Source of the DNA: Escherichia phage 1-6af
Sequence record: OR983333.1
DNA: 64,000 nt
Strand: one strand, 5' to 3'
Positions 1 to 49,966 of the stretch are shown piece after piece. Positions within the stretch are counted from its first letter, which is position 1. Each line of letters starts with the position of its first letter. The notes under the pieces were generated by a model. It did no database searches, was not told the origin of the DNA, and saw nothing but the letters and a program-made list of their open reading frames with translations. The translations under genes were made by a program, and so were the position numbers.

Positions 1-1557
1 TCTGTAGACAAAACTGGCTATGTCTCAACTACTTCAGTAACTGGTAAATCTATTAAACTTACAGCTCTTCGCAAAGGTGAGATTAACATAACATGTTCTG
101 TCAGCCAAATGACACAAAGGGATTATGACGCGTTTGACGACTATCCTTGGTATCATGCTGTTATATCAAACTGTGCAGTTGCTACAACTCACTATGAAAC
201 ACCACAAGTAAAAGAATTCGAATCTGAACATTTTACTGATCTTCCGGGGTGGGGAGAACAAACAGTGGTAGATAGTGATGGGAATCCTTCAGTTAAGAAG
301 TTCAACTGGAAATGTGAAAGAGTTCGTTCTTTTAACAACAGGCTCTTTGCCCTGAATATGAGGGAATCAAATGCTTCTGGCGTTACAACTAACTACCCAC
401 TTCGTCTTCGTTGGTCTAATTTTGCTAATGAGAACAAAGCTCCTACACTATGGGATGACTTTGCCTATGATCGTTTAGTAACATCTGACTTAGCTTCGAA
501 CATAGTTGGGCAGACTGAGGCTCTGGAAAATGGTTATGCTGGTTACATTGATTTAGCAGACTCCAATGGCAGCTTGATTGATATCCTACCTCTTAAAGAT
601 TACTTGTTCGTTTACACGGAGTTTGAAACGTACATTGGTTCTCCGACTAATAACACGTATCAACCACTGATGTTCAAGAAACTCTTTAATGACTCTGGTA
701 TCCTTGCTCCTGAGTGTGCAGTTGAAGTAGAAGGTAGCCATTTCGTTGTTACTCAGAACGATGTGATCTTACATAACGGCGCAACTAAGAAGTCAATCGC
801 TTCCAACCGTGTCAAGAACATGCTGATTAATGAGATCTGTCTGGTCAACCCGTTAGCTACCAGAGTTCACTTACATCAAGATAAAAAGGAGGTTTGGATT
901 CTTTATGTAGGTCCGGGAGAGCCTAAGGAAAGTTATGCTTGTACTAAAGCTGCTGTATGGAATTACGAGTTTGATACTTGGTCTTTCCGTACTATCCCAT
1001 ATGCTCAGTGTATTGGTTTGGTTGATCCTCCTGTCCTTGAAAGGGGTCCAATTTGGGCTGACTTCCAAGAAATCACTTGGGATGACCCATCGATCAAAGA
1101 GCTTGTTTGGAGAAAGGATGCAACAAACTTCAGACAGAGGATTACGATAGTAGGTTCATTCTTGAGGGGATTCTACCAAGTGGATGTAGGCGCTCTTGAC
1201 TATTTCTATGACAGATTAAATGATGCTGTTATAGAGAAGCCTCTGGAAATGAGGTTGGAGAGGACTGGTATAGATTTTGATAATGTGACGAATGAGTGGA
1301 ATCAGAAGCATGTTAATAGATTCCGTCCTCAGACAACTGGCTCAGGCACCTATACCTTTGAAGCTGGAGGTAGTCAATTCTCAAATGAATATGGACACCC
1401 ACACACATCTAAGACTTATACAATCGGTGTTGACAGACATGTCTCGGTGAGACTGAACCATCCATACCTTTTCTATAATGTTATAGATAATGATGTTAAC
1501 AGTAATGCTGCTATCAATGGGTTAACGATAGAGTTTGCTGTTGGCGGACGGAGATAA
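1..1557 (+). CDS. virion structural protein (tail-associated), probably 5'-partial
   Basis: Frame open from window position 1 into the ORF whose first ATG is at 109; no in-frame stop and no SD before 109; Ig-like strand motif in first 36 codons; terminator follows. Confidence 0.5.
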   Translation, partial: SVDKTGYVSTTSVTGKSIKLTALRKGEINITCSVSQMTQRDYDAFDDYPWYHAVISNCAVATTHYETPQVKEFESEHFTDLPGWGEQTVVDSDGNPSVKKFNWKCERVRSFNNRLFALNMRESNASGVTTNYPLRLRWSNFANENKAPTLWDDFAYDRLVTSDLASNIVGQTEALENGYAGYIDLADSNGSLIDILPLKDYLFVYTEFETYIGSPTNNTYQPLMFKKLFNDSGILAPECAVEVEGSHFVVTQNDVILHNGATKKSIASNRVKNMLINEICLVNPLATRVHLHQDKKEVWILYVGPGEPKESYACTKAAVWNYEFDTWSFRTIPYAQCIGLVDPPVLERGPIWADFQEITWDDPSIKELVWRKDATNFRQRITIVGSFLRGFYQVDVGALDYFYDRLNDAVIEKPLEMRLERTGIDFDNVTNEWNQKHVNRFRPQTTGSGTYTFEAGGSQFSNEYGHPHTSKTYTIGVDRHVSVRLNHPYLFYNVIDNDVNSNAAINGLTIEFAVGGRR

Positions 1558-1600: not shown

Positions 1601-2569
1601 ATGGGTGCAGGTGGTTTTCGTAAGAACACTGGTCGTAATAACACCACACTCCCGTACAACGTTGGGTTTCTCAATAATGTACAGGACACAGAAACATATA
1701 ACGTAGCCGTATATGACGAGCTACAGAAAGTTAGTACAGCTACTAACCAAATGTTCCAAGCTATTGATGAGATTCACGATGAGATTGATGTTCGTATCAA
1801 AGCTCTTCATGCGATGAATCTACAATTTGATGAGCTTGAGAATAGAGTTACTACAGAGATAGAGACAGCTATTGCAGATATCCAAACTCAGATGGGGAAC
1901 TTATCCACTGAAGATATTTGGGATAATTCTGTTCAACCTCCTGTAAAATTAGAAAGCACTGTATCTGGCTTTAAAACTAGTATTGAAGGTAACACAACTA
2001 AGATTCAAACGGTAGAAGGGATTGTTAACGACCAAGGTCAAGAGATCGCTTTAGTTCAGACAGAGATTCAAAATATCAACGGAAGCCTTTCTCAGTATAT
2101 GAAACTCTCTGAGTATGAAGCTACGTGGGGTGTTAACTCTACAATCAACGGAAAATATGCTGGGGTCAAGCTAACTAACAACGGAACAAACAGTCAATTC
2201 CAAGTAACAGCTAACAAATTTATTGTTGGTGATGGCAGCTCCGGTAACACTCCTTTTGTTTTTGAAAACGGTAGAGCGAAGATGGAGTTTGCTGACATAA
2301 AGAATGTCAACATTACAACTGCTATGATTGCTGACGCTAGAATACAGTGGGCACAAATTGATAATGTCAACATCACAAACGCACAGATTCAGAGTTTGTC
2401 TGCTAATAAAATTACCGCTGGTTCTATGAGTGGTACAAACTGGAGATTGACTGTTGGTGGTGATTTTGTTATGGGTGGTACTGGTGGTTCTCAGCTATGG
2501 ATGAATGGGAACAGGATAGATTTTTATGATGGAAGTGGTACACTCCGTATCAGAATAGGGAGTTGGTAA
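1601..2569 (+). CDS. tail fibre / receptor-binding-like protein
   Basis: ATG 1601 preceded by GGAGGA; coiled-coil N-terminus then repeated NVNIT-type motifs; ORF-track start 1535 overlaps the upstream gene and terminator. Confidence 0.5.
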   Translation: MGAGGFRKNTGRNNTTLPYNVGFLNNVQDTETYNVAVYDELQKVSTATNQMFQAIDEIHDEIDVRIKALHAMNLQFDELENRVTTEIETAIADIQTQMGNLSTEDIWDNSVQPPVKLESTVSGFKTSIEGNTTKIQTVEGIVNDQGQEIALVQTEIQNINGSLSQYMKLSEYEATWGVNSTINGKYAGVKLTNNGTNSQFQVTANKFIVGDGSSGNTPFVFENGRAKMEFADIKNVNITTAMIADARIQWAQIDNVNITNAQIQSLSANKITAGSMSGTNWRLTVGGDFVMGGTGGSQLWMNGNRIDFYDGSGTLRIRIGSW

Positions 2570-47679: not shown

Positions 47680-47706
47680 ACATCCTCCAATTAGATATTA
47701 TTCGAT

Positions 47707-47853
47707 TTGGTTACAGGTGTAGGATTCGAACCTACGCTCGGACTCCCTAGCCATCACCAAAGGAATGCATCCAATGGGCATACGGTCATTTGACCACGGG
47801 CGACTGCTTTACCGTAGGCTCTGCATTAGTGAGCCTCATAAGCTATACCTGTA
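47707..47853 (-). other. tRNA-like element of non-canonical length
   Basis: Minus strand reads GTAGG-TTCGAAT-CCTAC (T-arm), ACCTGTA, A, CCA; the only complementary 5' acceptor (TACAGGT) lies about 147 nt upstream, so no standard cloverleaf. Confidence 0.3.
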
Positions 47854-47982
47854 ACTAATTGCCAGGGATTCCACCTGGCTCCATCTGTTTTTAAAGTCAC
47901 TCAGATATCGTCCGGACTCTTTGCTGAGGGCCGTACAGGCTACTTCAAGTAACTGCTGTAAAGATTATTCCACAGCTTACCA

Positions 47983-48081
47983 CGATGAGGAGGTGCCTCA
48001 TCAGGAGAGTACACTAGCTCTGGGCCACGCCGTAGATATCGGCCTCCCTTCTACAGCTAATCAGCTAGTGTACTCTCCTGA
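47983..48081. repeat. nested inverted repeats (7-bp hairpin plus 20-bp perfect inverted repeat with 43-nt spacer)
   Basis: GATGAGG-aggtg-CCTCATC, then ATCAGGAGAGTACACTAGCT ... AGCTAGTGTACTCTCCTGAT. Confidence 0.6.
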
Positions 48082-48327
48082 TAATTTATAAATAGGGGGA
48101 GGGGACGAATCCTCCCTTATCCTATTAATTAGTATTGCATGTAAGATCTAACAATCGGTTGCCTTTGTAGGAATAAGCGTTATGCTAATCCAGCACTAAA
48201 CTCCCGCCCCCTTAGTGGGCTGGGTTATTAAAGGGTAACGCCCTTATGGGCTAGTTACATGAATGTTAGTTTGATAGGAGATCTGAAGTCCTATCTCAAA
48301 GGACTCTCGTAAGAATCCTTCACGATA

Positions 48328-48459
48328 TTACTTATTCATCTCTCGTCGGCTATCTCTCCAAGCCAACCAAGTGTAGGTTTTCAGTTCTTCAAAGTCTTCT
48401 GGAGAGAATAGATACTCTTTGAAGGTATCACCAAACCACTTTAAAAATTCTTCAGTCAT
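48328..48459 (-). CDS. hypothetical small protein (43 aa)
   Basis: Below cutoff; hand translation; weak AAGAGA RBS. Confidence 0.25.
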   Translation of the reverse strand: MTEEFLKWFGDTFKEYLFSPEDFEELKTYTWLAWRDSRREMNK

Positions 48460-49130: not shown

Positions 49131-49412
49131 TTACCACTCCTTACCGGTTGTTGTTACAGAACCACCACACCACTGTGCATCTGACAAGGTTTTAGTTTCC
49201 TCATCTACTGCTGCACCGTTCAGGCATGAGATACCACTGTAACGCATATCAATTTCACCAGAAGGAACCTTCTCACCTTTGTGCCAGCGAGAAACACAAA
49301 CACCTTCCACTGCTACTGCACACCATCCATCAGGACGGCTCTGTACGCAGCCTGTAAGGGCTATGCAGACAAGGAAGATACATATTAAGGATATTACACC
49401 ACCCCATGACAT
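49131..49412 (-). CDS. lipoprotein
   Basis: Signal peptide with lipobox LTGC from internal Met; GGAGG RBS; ORF track extends to 49469 over the palindromic element. Confidence 0.45.
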   Translation of the reverse strand: MSWGGVISLICIFLVCIALTGCVQSRPDGWCAVAVEGVCVSRWHKGEKVPSGEIDMRYSGISCLNGAAVDEETKTLSDAQWCGGSVTTTGKEW

Positions 49413-49420
49413 AACACACC

Positions 49421-49510
49421 TCCAAGAGCCTCTAGCGAGGATGACAGGGTTCGAACCTGCATACTCCAATTACTTCTTTAACGACCGCTTAGAAGGCGGG
49501 GAAGATACAT
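49421..49510. repeat. palindromic tRNA-like intergenic element
   Basis: 13-bp perfect inverted repeat TCTAGCGAGGATG ... CATCCTCGCTAGA enclosing GGTTCGAACC and a CCGC-CTTCTAA-GCGG stem-loop (minus sense). Confidence 0.45.
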
Positions 49511-49525
49511 CCTCGCTAGAAGCTC

Positions 49526-49966
49526 TTATTTATTATTGAAACCCTTGCTCCAGTAATACTTACCGTTGCAAGACCTACTACAAAAATGGTTTTGGTTTTC
49601 TTTGTGGACCTTGTTACCCCTTCTCTCAAAAGATGTGCCACAATTACTACAAATCAAAGTAATGACCACACCCTTAGGTCTGTTCTCTAAGGTCTTCTTT
49701 AGGTGATCATTTGTGCTTAGAATCTGAAGGTTAGATATCTCATCATTGGTTGGATTTTGATCAACATGATCTACCTCTTCCTCCGCAGTAAGATACCTCC
49801 CTACATGGCAAGACATTAAATACCTTGCATAAGAGATCGTAGTCCTATCTGTGTTAGAATTGAATAGGTCAACACGCCTCCTCCCATCCTTACTTGTCCT
49901 TAAATACCCCAACCTCCAGTCATTGATGAAGGGGTATTCCAACTCTATTTTCAATACCACCTCCAT
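49526..49966 (-). CDS. HNH homing endonuclease
   Basis: HNH motif EEVDHVDQNPTNDEISNL...NDH plus C-terminal zinc ribbon. Confidence 0.65.
   Translation of the reverse strand: MEVVLKIELEYPFINDWRLGYLRTSKDGRRRVDLFNSNTDRTTISYARYLMSCHVGRYLTAEEEVDHVDQNPTNDEISNLQILSTNDHLKKTLENRPKGVVITLICSNCGTSFERRGNKVHKENQNHFCSRSCNGKYYWSKGFNNK

What the first reader, a model, noticed from the sequence alone, without database searches (positions are those of the whole stretch)
49421..49510. Palindromic tRNA-like element between the lipoprotein gene and an HNH gene
A 13-bp perfect inverted repeat encloses GGTTCGAACC (T-loop-like, but itself palindromic) and, in minus sense, a CCGC-CUUCUAA-GCGG stem-loop with the shape of an anticodon loop (U33, UCU, A37). 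No D-arm can be drawn, so I do not call it a tRNA. It may be a degenerate tRNA, a terminator or a protein-binding palindrome.
Basis: seen in the sequence. Interest (0 to 1): 0.45.

Follow-up and report, generated by a model that had tools for sequence, protein, structure and literature searches.

The report
Rewired arginine tRNA gene in phages
The flagged palindrome is a gene for an unusual arginine tRNA in which the D-arm is replaced by a differently wired three-base-pair helix; it belongs to a family found in many unrelated phages, which standard tRNA finders and annotations mostly miss.

Summary
On the minus strand a 20-bp leader/trailer-plus-acceptor stem (49424-49443 / 49508-49527) encloses a T arm and a CUUCUAA anticodon hairpin, and there is no canonical D arm. 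It is not a degenerate tRNA, a terminator or a protein-binding palindrome. The window is a Kuravirus (phiEco32-like coliphage). The element sits exactly where relatives carry a canonical tRNA-Arg(UCU). It belongs to a family of at least 62 distinct sequences from Kuravirus, phi92-like phages, Vequintavirinae, jumbo Asteriusvirus, Sugarland-like Klebsiella phages, and Vibrio, Streptomyces and many uncultivated phages, usually inside tRNA arrays. All four helices covary. This includes a new 3-bp helix that pairs the strand before the anticodon arm with a strand after it (62/62 paired at each pair, 17 haplotypes). A D-loop-like AAUUGGA motif lies where the variable loop should be. Every member has an arginine anticodon (UCU 60, CCU 1, ACG 1). 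The best explanation is a functional tRNA-Arg with a rewired core that reads AGA, a codon the phage uses heavily. The window copy is the CCA-less subtype, embedded in a long processing stem. I found no published description and no dedicated Rfam family. Expression and charging are untested.

The parts
49436..49514 (-). Body of the non-canonical tRNA-Arg(UCU), from 5' G1 (49514) to discriminator G (49436)
   Evidence: Rfam tRNA 29.7 bits. Family covariance model R1 gives 98.2 bits, E = 3e-24, over 49514..49433.
49508..49514 (-). Acceptor stem, 5' strand (GAGGAUG)
   Evidence: Pairs with 49437-49443. All 7 acceptor pairs show double changes across the family, 99.1% of cells paired.
49505..49507 (-). 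U8-A9-U10 connector, invariant UAU
   Evidence: UAU in 62/62 family members. This segment was not constrained by the IMG/VR search patterns.
49501..49504 (-). 5' strand of the D-stem-replacing helix (CUUC)
   Evidence: Pairs with 49473-49476 (GAAG). Alignment columns 11-13 with 40-42 are paired in 62/62 sequences, with 2, 4 and 3 pair types. The window also forms the optional 4th pair.
49484..49500 (-). Anticodon arm: stem CCCGC/GCGGU (first pair C.U), loop CUUCUAA, anticodon UCU at 49491-49493
   Evidence: All five stem pairs show double changes. The anticodon is TCT in 60/62, CCT in 1 and ACG in 1, and was unconstrained by the search patterns.
49477..49483 (-). Conserved 7-nt bulge CGUUAAA between the anticodon stem and the 3' strand of the new helix
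   Evidence: Consensus C-R-U-Y-A-A-N across the family.
49473..49476 (-). 3' strand of the D-stem-replacing helix (GAAG)
   Evidence: See 49501-49504.
49461..49472 (-). D-loop-like connector UAAUUGGAGUAU (candidate A14, A15, G18, G19, A20 and U48 equivalents)
   Evidence: Invariant apart from U/C at one position. This conservation is partly forced by the search pattern, but it is also seen in the blastn-derived members L004-L012. The assignment to canonical positions is inference.
49444..49460 (-). T arm: stem GCAGG/CCUGU, loop UUCGAAC
   Evidence: 4 of 5 pairs show double changes. Pair 55-71 is GC 27 / GU 19, which fixes the strand.
49437..49443 (-). Acceptor stem, 3' strand (CAUCCUC)
49515..49527 (-). 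5' leader strand of the extended stem (AAGAGCUUCUAGC). Its outer two bases lie in the HNH stop codon (49526-49528).
   Evidence: 12 of 12 positions pair with the trailer.
49424..49436 (-). 3' trailer strand of the extended stem (GCUAGAGGCUCUU). There is no encoded CCA: CUA follows the discriminator.
   Evidence: It is followed 1 nt later by the GGAGGUG Shine-Dalgarno sequence and the ATG (49410-49412) of the lipoprotein gene.
49526..49966 (-). HNH endonuclease gene immediately upstream (neighbour, probably a mobile insertion)
   Evidence: Pfam HNH_3. 67% identical to the Bas91 homing endonuclease that sits upstream of a canonical tRNA-Arg. Absent from Bas94 and MN05 at this slot.
49131..49412 (-). 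Phage lipoprotein gene immediately downstream (neighbour that marks the syntenic slot)
   Evidence: Pfam Phage_lipoprotein, E = 1.7e-36. The same gene (MSWGG...) follows the canonical tRNA-Arg in MN05 and Bas91.

Best explanation
The element is a gene for a structurally non-canonical but functional arginine tRNA (anticodon UCU). It is transcribed on the minus strand as part of the HNH-tRNA-lipoprotein message. Shown by comparison: a 7-bp acceptor stem, a 5-bp T arm and a 5-bp anticodon arm are kept, but there is no D arm. Instead, 3-4 nt just before the anticodon arm (CUUC) pair with 3-4 nt that follow a conserved 7-nt bulge after the anticodon arm (GAAG). A conserved D-loop-like UAAUUGGAGUAU then leads into the T arm. 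Inferred: the short helix stacks on the anticodon stem like a D stem, but with its two strands in swapped order. The GG of the connector would contact the T loop at the elbow, the following A would play the role of A20 (the main ArgRS determinant), and U8/A and A/U would mimic the 8-14 and 15-48 pairs. The molecule would then still form an L shape that host ArgRS, EF-Tu and the ribosome accept. It would supply decoding of AGA (and AGG), which the phage uses about six times more often than E. coli does. Also inferred: in this window the gene is the CCA-less subtype. A 13-bp leader-trailer duplex continues the acceptor stem and probably serves to fold and excise the tRNA from the polycistronic mRNA (RNase III and/or RNase P plus 3' trimming). 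The host CCA-adding enzyme would then add CCA, as is known for CCA-less T4 tRNAs.
For: (1) Synteny. Relatives MN05 and Bas91 carry an ARAGORN-confirmed canonical tRNA-Arg(tct) in exactly this slot, just upstream of the same lipoprotein gene. HC-25922 carries a second rewired allele directly followed by the last ~34 nt of the Bas91-type canonical gene, which indicates gene replacement.
(2) Family. There are 62 distinct 82-nt members from INPHARED and IMG/VR phages of many lineages. Model R1 scores the window copy at 98.2 bits, whereas canonical tRNAs score at most 30.
(3) Covariation. 94.6% of cells are paired, 19/21 pairs have double changes, and the covariation score is 0.795 against 0.19 for shuffles (0/500 reach it) and at most 0.17 for slid controls. 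The new helix is paired 62/62 at each of its 3 pairs, with 17 haplotypes, and these pairs are among the top mutual-information pairs.
(4) Identity. Anticodons are UCU x60, CCU x1 and ACG x1, all arginine and all with C35, although the search patterns did not constrain them. The discriminator is G or A in 60/62. This matches the Arg identity set A20, C35, U/G36, A/G73 (PMC9976931).
(5) Context. Members lie inside tRNA arrays. In the one array read closely (phi92-like, L004) the spacing and the sigma-70-like promoter look like those of the neighbouring tRNA. 40/62 encode CCA. Arrays that hold a member lack a canonical tRNA-Arg(tct) in all but one of 45 loci scanned. For example, Antha has 15 tRNAs and no other Arg, and L022 has 23 canonical tRNAs including Arg(acg) but no Arg(tct).
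(6) Demand. AGA is 12.3 and AGG 5.4 per 1000 codons in the window's ORFs. My own knowledge puts E. coli at about 2 and 1.
(7) Strand. G.U pairs occur only in minus sense.
Against: There are no expression, processing or aminoacylation data for any member. Nearest-neighbour folding does not predict the 3-bp helix: it appears in the MFE of 1/62 members, and the proposed structure lies on average 3.7 kcal/mol above the MFE, so it must rely on tertiary contacts. The 3D equivalences (A14, A15, G18, G19, A20, U48) rest on invariant positions, which cannot covary and were partly fixed by my search patterns. The window copy lacks CCA, its discriminator is buried in a 20-bp duplex that overlaps the HNH stop codon, and its first anticodon-stem pair is C.U (also unpaired in 11/46 members). 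ARAGORN rejects it and the Rfam tRNA score is only just above threshold. One locus (L037) carries both a canonical tRNA-Arg(tct) and a rewired one, so the two are not strictly exclusive.
Confidence: 0.75

Rival explanations
1. A non-decoding tRNA mimic: an RNA that keeps the acceptor, T and anticodon arms to bind ArgRS, a modification enzyme or an Arg-tRNA-directed host nuclease (decoy), or to act as a primer or processing punctuation, without delivering arginine on the ribosome.
For: The core is non-canonical. ARAGORN fails and the Rfam score is marginal. About a third of members, including the window copy, lack CCA and have the discriminator paired. Phage tRNAs have been proposed to counter host tRNases, including the Arg-specific colicin D (PMC10264068).
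Against: The three anticodons seen share only arginine identity, not one loop sequence. 40/62 encode CCA and sit in ordinary tRNA arrays, where they fill the otherwise empty Arg(UCU) slot. The element replaces a canonical tRNA-Arg(UCU) in kuraviruses. The 7/5-bp acceptor/T geometry needed by EF-Tu and RNase P is strictly kept.
Confidence: 0.12
2. A degenerate remnant (pseudogene) of the canonical kuravirus tRNA-Arg, damaged by the neighbouring HNH insertion.
For: It lies in the canonical tRNA-Arg slot next to an HNH gene. It has no D arm and no CCA.
Against: It is not derived from either kuravirus canonical allele. The same 82-nt architecture occurs in 62 distinct sequences from unrelated phages, with compensatory changes and invariant loops. 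The window copy scores as high as the best members (98.2 bits). Bas94 has it without the HNH gene.
Confidence: 0.03
3. The long palindrome is primarily an mRNA or DNA signal: a terminator, an RNase III processing or stability hairpin between the HNH and lipoprotein cistrons, or the recognition or homing site of the HNH endonuclease. On this reading the tRNA-like interior is incidental.
For: A 20-bp duplex spans from the HNH stop codon to 1 nt before the lipoprotein Shine-Dalgarno sequence. HNH genes lie within 9-176 nt of family members on the same strand in 8 loci. The homology between Bas94 and the window breaks inside the leader.
Against: No U-run and no terminator call. The interior is far more conserved than the stem, and 40/62 members have no extended stem at all. 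The stem arms covary, and a G.U pair argues for RNA pairing rather than a DNA site. A processing role for the stem is compatible with the tRNA reading and is part of it.
Confidence: 0.1

Closest known systems
Canonical bacterial and phage tRNA-Arg(UCU), e.g. E. coli argU and the tRNA-Arg of kuraviruses MN05 and Bas91
   Same: Same genomic slot in kuraviruses. Same anticodon loop CUUCUAA, 7-bp acceptor stem, 5-bp T arm with UUCGAAY loop, G/A73, and a GGA motif like G18-G19-A20.
   Different: There is no D hairpin between positions 10 and 25. The anticodon arm directly follows the 5' strand of a 3-bp helix, whose 3' strand lies after a 7-nt bulge. The D-loop-like sequence lies 3' of the anticodon arm, where the variable loop should be. 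The length is 79 nt plus CCA. ARAGORN misses it.
D-armless mitochondrial tRNA-Ser(AGY) and other truncated metazoan mt-tRNAs (PMC4013460, PMC9427863)
   Same: A tRNA that works without a canonical D arm. The helix carrying the anticodon is extended.
   Different: Those are organellar, shortened and sequence-eroded. They have lost the G18-G19/T-loop elbow contacts and need co-evolved mitochondrial factors. This family is longer than a standard tRNA, keeps a conserved D-loop-like motif and a canonical T loop, occurs in phages of bacteria, and would have to use unmodified host machinery.
Bacterial tRNAs with novel cloverleaves (8/4 and 9/3 allo-tRNAs, tRNA-Sec; PMC5389517, PMC7609411)
   Same: Naturally occurring non-canonical tRNA architectures found by sequence mining, some of them in phages.
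   Different: Those change the lengths of the acceptor and T stems but keep the order of the four arms. Here the 7/5 branch is canonical and the connectivity of the D region is changed.
Permuted and split tRNA genes of archaea and red algae (PMC3218864)
   Same: Segments of the tRNA appear in an unusual order in the gene.
   Different: There the mature tRNA is a normal cloverleaf, made by splicing or circularisation at bulge-helix-bulge motifs, and the 3' half precedes the 5' half. Here the 5' and 3' acceptor strands are in normal order, no BHB motif is present, and the altered order would persist in the mature RNA.
CCA-less T4 tRNA precursors and RNase III processing hairpins in phage polycistronic RNAs (own knowledge: RNase BN/Z and the CCA-adding enzyme are needed for some T4 tRNAs; T7 R1.1-type sites)
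   Same: A tRNA embedded in a phage transcript without an encoded CCA, flanked by a long duplex of about two helical turns.
   Different: Here the duplex is a direct continuation of the acceptor stem, and it is found in only 10 of 46 family members. Processing has not been tested.

Membership tests
tRNA (Rfam RF00005; canonical cloverleaf) | Score at or above the curated gathering threshold of the family model | tested here: met
   29.7 bits against a gathering score of 29, so met only marginally, with the D arm deleted in the alignment.
tRNA (canonical cloverleaf) | 7-bp acceptor stem contiguous with a 5-bp T stem and a 7-nt T loop UUCRANY | tested here: met
   GAGGAUG/CAUCCUC; GCAGG-UUCGAAC-CCUGU. 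99.1% of cells are paired in both helices across the family.
tRNA (canonical cloverleaf) | 5-bp anticodon stem with a 7-nt loop, U33 and a purine at position 37 | tested here: met
   CCCGC-CUUCUAA-GCGGU. The first pair is C.U in the window. Five covarying pairs across the family.
tRNA (canonical cloverleaf) | D arm: a 3-4-bp stem closing an 8-11-nt loop between the acceptor and anticodon arms | tested here: not met
   Only 7 nt (UAUCUUC) separate the acceptor and anticodon stems. Rfam aligns 4 nt in place of 15 and ARAGORN gives no call.
tRNA (canonical cloverleaf) | Variable region of 4-5 nt, or a class II hairpin, between the anticodon and T arms | tested here: not met
   23 nt: a 7-nt bulge, the 4-nt 3' strand of the new helix and a 12-nt D-loop-like connector. 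No hairpin is supported by covariation.
tRNA (functional definition) | Mature 3' CCA, aminoacylation and use on the ribosome | not testable with these tools
   CCA is not encoded in the window (CUA). It is encoded in 40/62 family members. No expression or charging data are available.
Arginine-accepting tRNA (E. coli ArgRS identity set: A20, C35, U/G36, A/G73; PMC9976931) | C35, U36 or G36, and A or G at position 73 | tested here: met
   Window: UCU anticodon and G73. Family: C35 in 62/62, position 36 is U or G in 62/62, position 73 is G/A in 60/62.
Arginine-accepting tRNA | A20 presented in the D loop next to G18-G19 | tested here: inconclusive
   An invariant GGA lies in the connector UAAUUGGAGUAU. 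Whether it occupies the position of A20 in three dimensions is inference.
Rewired phage tRNA-Arg family defined here (model R1) | UAU connector, 3-bp helix of columns 11-13 with 40-42 flanking the anticodon arm, C-R-U-Y-A-A-N bulge, UAAYUGGAGUAU connector, Arg anticodon | tested here: met
   98.2 bits, E = 3e-24, full length. All listed features are present.
Intrinsic (Rho-independent) terminator | GC-rich hairpin with a short loop, immediately followed by a U-run | tested here: not met
   The consensus scan finds none at the element. The 64-nt interior is structured and the minus-strand tail is UUGGAGGUG.
D-armless mitochondrial-type tRNA | D arm replaced by a short unpaired connector, with loss of the conserved elbow nucleotides | tested here: not met
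   A covarying replacement helix and a conserved GG-containing connector are present.
Permuted tRNA gene | 3' half encoded upstream of the 5' half, joined through a processed intervening sequence (BHB motif) | tested here: not met
   The acceptor 5' and 3' strands are in normal order and pair directly.
tmRNA, YrlA or viral TLS | Match to the curated covariance models | tested here: not met
   No Rfam match other than tRNA up to E = 10. ARAGORN finds no tmRNA.

The most novel reading that the evidence does not exclude
This would be a previously unrecognised natural tRNA architecture outside organelles. It would be an arginine tRNA whose D-stem strands are swapped in order, so that the anticodon arm emerges from the position of the D loop and the D-loop nucleotides sit in the position of the variable loop. 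It would still be charged by host ArgRS and used by host ribosomes. On this reading it spreads between unrelated phages as a small cassette, often together with HNH homing endonucleases. It would be favoured because the rewired core escapes a host (or phage) nuclease or modification system that recognises canonical Arg tRNAs.
Probability: 0.2. Interest if true: 0.92.

Novelty: new variant of a known kind. Interest (0 to 1): 0.8.

Why it matters
If these RNAs are charged and used, they show that bacterial ArgRS, RNase P, EF-Tu and the ribosome tolerate a tRNA whose core connectivity is rewired, not merely truncated as in mitochondria. That would bear on what really defines a tRNA, and it would offer a natural scaffold for orthogonal tRNA design. 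There are practical consequences too. ARAGORN misses the gene in 44 of 45 loci scanned, and most of the public phage records whose annotation I looked at leave it unannotated or call it 'tRNA-OTHER', 'tRNA-Undet' or a wrong isotype. Phage tRNA repertoires and codon-usage analyses are therefore likely to undercount tRNA-Arg in these phages. The repeated replacement of a canonical tRNA-Arg by this form, and its frequent HNH neighbours, make it a tractable case of tRNA gene mobility in phages.

Tried and rejected
- ARAGORN on the window found no tRNA or tmRNA.
- An Rfam scan of the whole window at gathering threshold, and of the region at E up to 10, found only the marginal tRNA hit.
- Single-sequence folding of either strand gives the long stem and the T hairpin but not the anticodon hairpin or the new helix. 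It is misleading here.
- RNAalifold proposed a GUUA/UAAY hairpin (columns 33-36 with 43-46) in place of the new helix. I rejected it as unsupported: its only variation is one-sided or pair-breaking (A.C x4, C.A x4) with no compensatory change. It cannot be excluded as a tertiary or pseudoknot element.
- Pairing of CUC with the second GAG (in UGGAGU) is rejected, because that GAG stays invariant while the 5' strand varies.
- The pattern GTAAYTGGAGTNNNNNNNNTTCRANNC had a spacing error and returned only 5 chance matches.
- The search for related loci with the SSBI34 HNH protein found only distant HNH relatives with no family member nearby. The HNH association could therefore not be tested from the HNH side.
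- The genome-contig scan gave 9 hits, all on MAG contigs. 4 loci hold real members (L069 with two divergent copies, L070, L071, L075) and the rest are chance matches. I take the family to be phage-borne.
- Six literature searches, one of them with the conserved sequence itself, and checks of three papers (PMC7609411, PMC9976931, PMC10264068) found no description of this architecture. The library is incomplete, so prior description cannot be excluded.

Full report
**Observation**

The repeat finder gives one inverted repeat with arms 49424-49443 and 49508-49527 (20 nt, 95% complementary, 64 nt apart). Read on the minus strand the sequence is:

AAGAGCUUCUAGC | GAGGAUG UAU CUUC CCCGC CUUCUAA GCGGU CGUUAAA GAAG UAAUUGGAGUAU GCAGG UUCGAAC CCUGU CAUCCUC G | CUAGAGGCUCUU

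The single mismatch of the repeat is a G.U in this sense and a C.A in the other. The stretch folds much better than shuffles (-44.4 kcal/mol, z = -4.99). Rfam's tRNA model matches 49514..49436 (-) at 29.7 bits (gathering 29), with the D arm reduced to 4 nt and 20 extra nt in the variable region. ARAGORN reports nothing in the whole window. The neighbours are as stated: an HNH_3 protein gene (49526-49966) upstream and a Phage_lipoprotein gene (49131-49412) downstream, all on the minus strand. The outer pairs of the stem overlap the HNH stop codon. The lipoprotein Shine-Dalgarno sequence starts 1 nt after the stem.

**Where the window comes from, and what sits at this slot in relatives**

The region is 99.9% identical to Escherichia phage 1-6bf and 99.7% identical to FH3, which are kuraviruses (phiEco32-like, about 77 kb). 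In MN05 and Bas91 the same position, just upstream of the same lipoprotein gene, holds a canonical tRNA-Arg(tct) that is both annotated and found by ARAGORN. The flagged element therefore occupies the tRNA-Arg(UCU) slot. Kuravirus-like phages show at least four states at this slot:
- a canonical gene without an HNH gene (MN05);
- an HNH gene plus a canonical gene (Bas91);
- an HNH gene plus the window-type element (1-6bf, FH3, Bas93), or the element without an HNH gene (Bas94);
- a second allele of the element, 81% identical (HC-25922, TH42).

In HC-25922 the element is followed directly by the last ~34 nt of the Bas91-type canonical tRNA-Arg. The element therefore replaced the 5' two-thirds of a canonical gene.

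**A family in unrelated phages**

Sensitive blastn with the 116-nt element hit 145 phage records. They include:
- phi92-like Justusliebigvirus;
- Vequintavirinae (SSBI34, A73, Mydovirus KB57, Proteus phage Mydo);
- jumbo Asteriusvirus;
- Sugarland-like Klebsiella phages;
- an Ounavirinae record;
- a Vibrio phage;
- Streptomyces Karimacvirus.

Two IMG/VR pattern scans added many uncultivated phages. A scan of 185,579 bacterial and archaeal genomes gave only 9 hits, all on MAG contigs, of which 4 loci hold real members. I take the family to be phage-borne. In total I collected 62 distinct 82-nt sequences. A few records call them 'tRNA-OTHER' or 'tRNA-Undet'. One calls it tRNA-Val(aac). Of the records I looked at, most leave it unannotated or overlay a hypothetical ORF.

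**Structure**

On a 46-sequence MAFFT alignment (A1) I counted pairs for a named structure.
- 94.6% of cells are paired, against 63.6% in shuffles.
- 19 of 21 pairs carry double changes.
- The covariation score is 0.795, against 0.19 for shuffles (0/500 reach it) and at most 0.17 for any slid register.

The acceptor, anticodon and T helices behave like those of any tRNA. The new feature is a short helix between columns 11-13 (right after the invariant U8-A9-U10) and columns 40-42 (after a conserved 7-nt bulge C-R-U-Y-A-A-N that follows the anticodon arm). In the 62-sequence set these three pairs are formed in 62/62 sequences:
- pair 11-42: CG 61, UA 1;
- pair 12-41: UA 39, AU 11, GC 10, CG 2;
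- pair 13-40: CG 48, UA 7, GC 7.

There are 17 helix haplotypes, and these pairs are among the highest mutual-information column pairs. A fourth pair (14-39) forms in 16/62 sequences, including the window (C-G). RNAalifold instead draws a GUUA/UAAY hairpin, but its variation is only one-sided or pair-breaking. Thermodynamic folding does not find the 3-bp helix (1/62 MFE structures; +3.7 kcal/mol on average). Support for it is therefore comparative only, and it probably depends on tertiary contacts. T-stem pair 55-71 is GC 27 / GU 19, which fixes the transcribed strand.

**Reading of the architecture (inference)**

In a canonical tRNA the order is 8-9, D-stem 5' strand, D loop, D-stem 3' strand, 26, anticodon arm, variable loop, T arm. 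Here the order is U8-A9-U, helix strand, anticodon arm, 7-nt bulge, helix strand, U-AAUUGGAG-UAU, T arm. The short helix can stack on the anticodon stem as a D stem does, but its strands are in swapped order. The strand that continues into the anticodon stem would take the geometric place of positions 22-25. The strand that precedes the D-loop-like segment would take the place of positions 10-13. The segment AAUUGGA resembles the D loop of E. coli tRNA-Arg (AGUUGGAUA, from my own knowledge). It would place A/A at the 14/15 positions (partners U8 and the invariant U just before the T stem), GG at 18/19 for the elbow contact with the T loop, and A at position 20. All of these positions are invariant, so they cannot be tested by covariation. 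Columns 43-54 were also partly fixed by my search patterns, although the blastn-derived members show the same motif.

**Function**

Three points argue for a working arginine tRNA and against a relic or decoy.
1. Identity. The anticodon was not constrained by any search, yet it is UCU in 60 members, CCU in one (Vibrio phage, L012) and ACG in one (L095). All are arginine and all have C35, and position 73 is G or A in 60/62. The Arg identity set is A20, C35, U/G36 and A/G73 (PMC9976931).
2. Context. Members sit in tRNA arrays. In the phi92-like array (L004) the element has a TTGACA-17-TATAGT promoter upstream, much like the tRNA next to it. 40/62 members encode CCA. Among 45 loci scanned with ARAGORN, only one (L037) also has a canonical tRNA-Arg(tct). 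Large arrays such as L022 (23 canonical tRNAs) and Antha (15 tRNAs) otherwise lack this isoacceptor.
3. Demand. The window's ORFs use AGA at 12.3 and AGG at 5.4 per 1000 codons, which is 31% of Arg codons. From my own knowledge this is several-fold above E. coli.

No transcript, charging or ribosome data exist, so function is inferred.

**The palindrome itself**

The family splits cleanly into two subtypes. In 10 of 46 distinct sequences, 11-12 of the 12 positions outside the acceptor stem are paired (leader with discriminator and trailer), and none of these encodes CCA (GCUA, GCAA, ACAA or GCAU instead). All CCA-encoding members show only chance-level pairing. The window belongs to the stem subtype, as do the Vequintavirinae SSBI34 and A73 and an Ounavirinae record. 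The stem arms differ in sequence between phages but keep pairing, with G.U pairs, so selection acts on RNA. Together with the acceptor and T stems, the duplex gives about two helical turns. I infer that it insulates and excises the tRNA from the polycistronic mRNA (RNase III and/or RNase P, then 3' trimming and CCA addition). The precedent is the CCA-less T4 tRNAs that need RNase BN and the CCA-adding enzyme (own knowledge). No sigma-70 promoter or intrinsic terminator is predicted at the element.

**HNH neighbours**

With four HNH proteins taken from such loci as tblastn queries, nearly every hit lies next to a tRNA-Arg gene. Across the 79 loci (684 kb) that hold a family member, every hit lies 9-176 nt from the rewired tRNA, on the same strand. 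This covers eight loci: downstream in L005, L011/L031, L020, L039, L047 and L075, and upstream in the window type (L002). One further hit lies next to the canonical gene of Bas91. The only hit next to no tRNA-Arg gene is a weak one (E about 7e-4) in L080, a locus that was fetched with the HNH protein itself. The queries were chosen from tRNA-adjacent genes, so this is suggestive rather than a controlled test. The reverse search found nothing useful. Together with the replacement scar in HC-25922, it fits spread of the gene as a small cassette by homing-type recombination.

**Comparison with what is known**

By Rfam's threshold the element is (just) a tRNA, but it fails two defining cloverleaf features: the D arm and the variable region.
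- It differs from D-armless mitochondrial tRNAs, which are shortened and have lost the elbow nucleotides (PMC4013460, PMC9427863).
- It differs from 8/4 and 9/3 allo-tRNAs, which change stem lengths but not arm order (PMC5389517).
- It differs from permuted tRNA genes, whose mature product is a normal cloverleaf (PMC3218864).

Six full-text searches, one of them using the conserved 13-mer, and a 2020 review of non-canonical tRNAs turned up no description. Rfam 15 has no dedicated family.

**Verdict**

I classify the element as a new structural variant of a known kind (tRNA). The caveats are that the literature library is incomplete and that function is inferred. Why the core is rewired is unknown. 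Escape from Arg-tRNA-directed nucleases, in the spirit of PMC10264068, is a speculation that I could not test.

Noticed in passing
window 47700-47860 (-), inside a ~650-nt ORF-poor stretch 47680-48330: A second tRNA-like RNA candidate of about 150 nt. A 9-bp terminal stem (GUUACAGGU/ACCUGUAAC) is contiguous with a perfect T arm (GUAGG-UUCGAAU-CCUAC, 47719-47735). The 3' strand of the stem runs into the CCA that follows (...ACCUGUAACCA), and there is about 100 nt of structured interior. No Rfam or ARAGORN hit. It is conserved at 93-100% identity in 12 kuravirus records and is not annotated as an RNA in any of them (a hypothetical ORF overlaps it in one).
   Followed up: partly
L001 (Bas91) ~2125-2245 (-); L079 (HC-25922) ~1335-1450 (+): Downstream of the tRNA-Arg slot these relatives carry another ~115-nt tRNA-like element (GGGCUA...UUCUGG-UUCGAUU-CCAGA-UAGUCC-A-CCA) with an acceptor-like stem, a T arm and CCA. 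It is not annotated and ARAGORN does not call it.
   Followed up: no
L079 (HC-25922) 1194-1330: The rewired tRNA-Arg is followed directly by the last ~34 nt (T arm, acceptor 3' strand, CCA) of the Bas91-type canonical tRNA-Arg. This is a scar showing that the rewired gene replaced part of a canonical one.
   Followed up: yes
L005 3115-3474, L039 1814-2167, L047 6882-7142, L075 5480-5722, L020 613-921, L011 1085-1594: HNH endonuclease genes, several of them mutually related (50-56% identity to the SSBI34 protein), lie 9-176 nt downstream of rewired tRNA-Arg genes on the same strand, in phages of different lineages. This suggests a mobile tRNA-HNH cassette.
   Followed up: partly
L095 ~579-660 (+) (IMG/VR contig 2974665086_000001, 139 kb); L012 998-1079 (Vibrio phage 1.170.O): Family members with other arginine anticodons: ACG (loop CUACGAA, replacement helix UCC/GGA) and CCU (loop CUCCUAA). 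The architecture therefore appears tied to arginine rather than to a single anticodon.
   Followed up: partly
L069 2103-2182 and 1458-1543 (+): Two divergent copies on one MAG contig. One has a 3-nt bulge in place of the 7-nt one and a 14-nt connector (69 bits). The other has a disrupted T/acceptor end (47 bits) and is possibly a decaying copy.
   Followed up: no
L007 565-639, L016 262-337, L068 1770-1845: ARAGORN reports 'tRNA-???' genes with two-base anticodons (ga, ga, tg) in phage tRNA arrays that also hold the rewired tRNA-Arg. These are further odd tRNAs that I did not examine.
   Followed up: no
L010 995-1073 (Streptomyces phage Yaboi): The family member there is annotated as tRNA-Val(aac), which is evidently a mis-folded call. 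The covariance alignment gives anticodon UCU, discriminator A and no CCA.
   Followed up: partly
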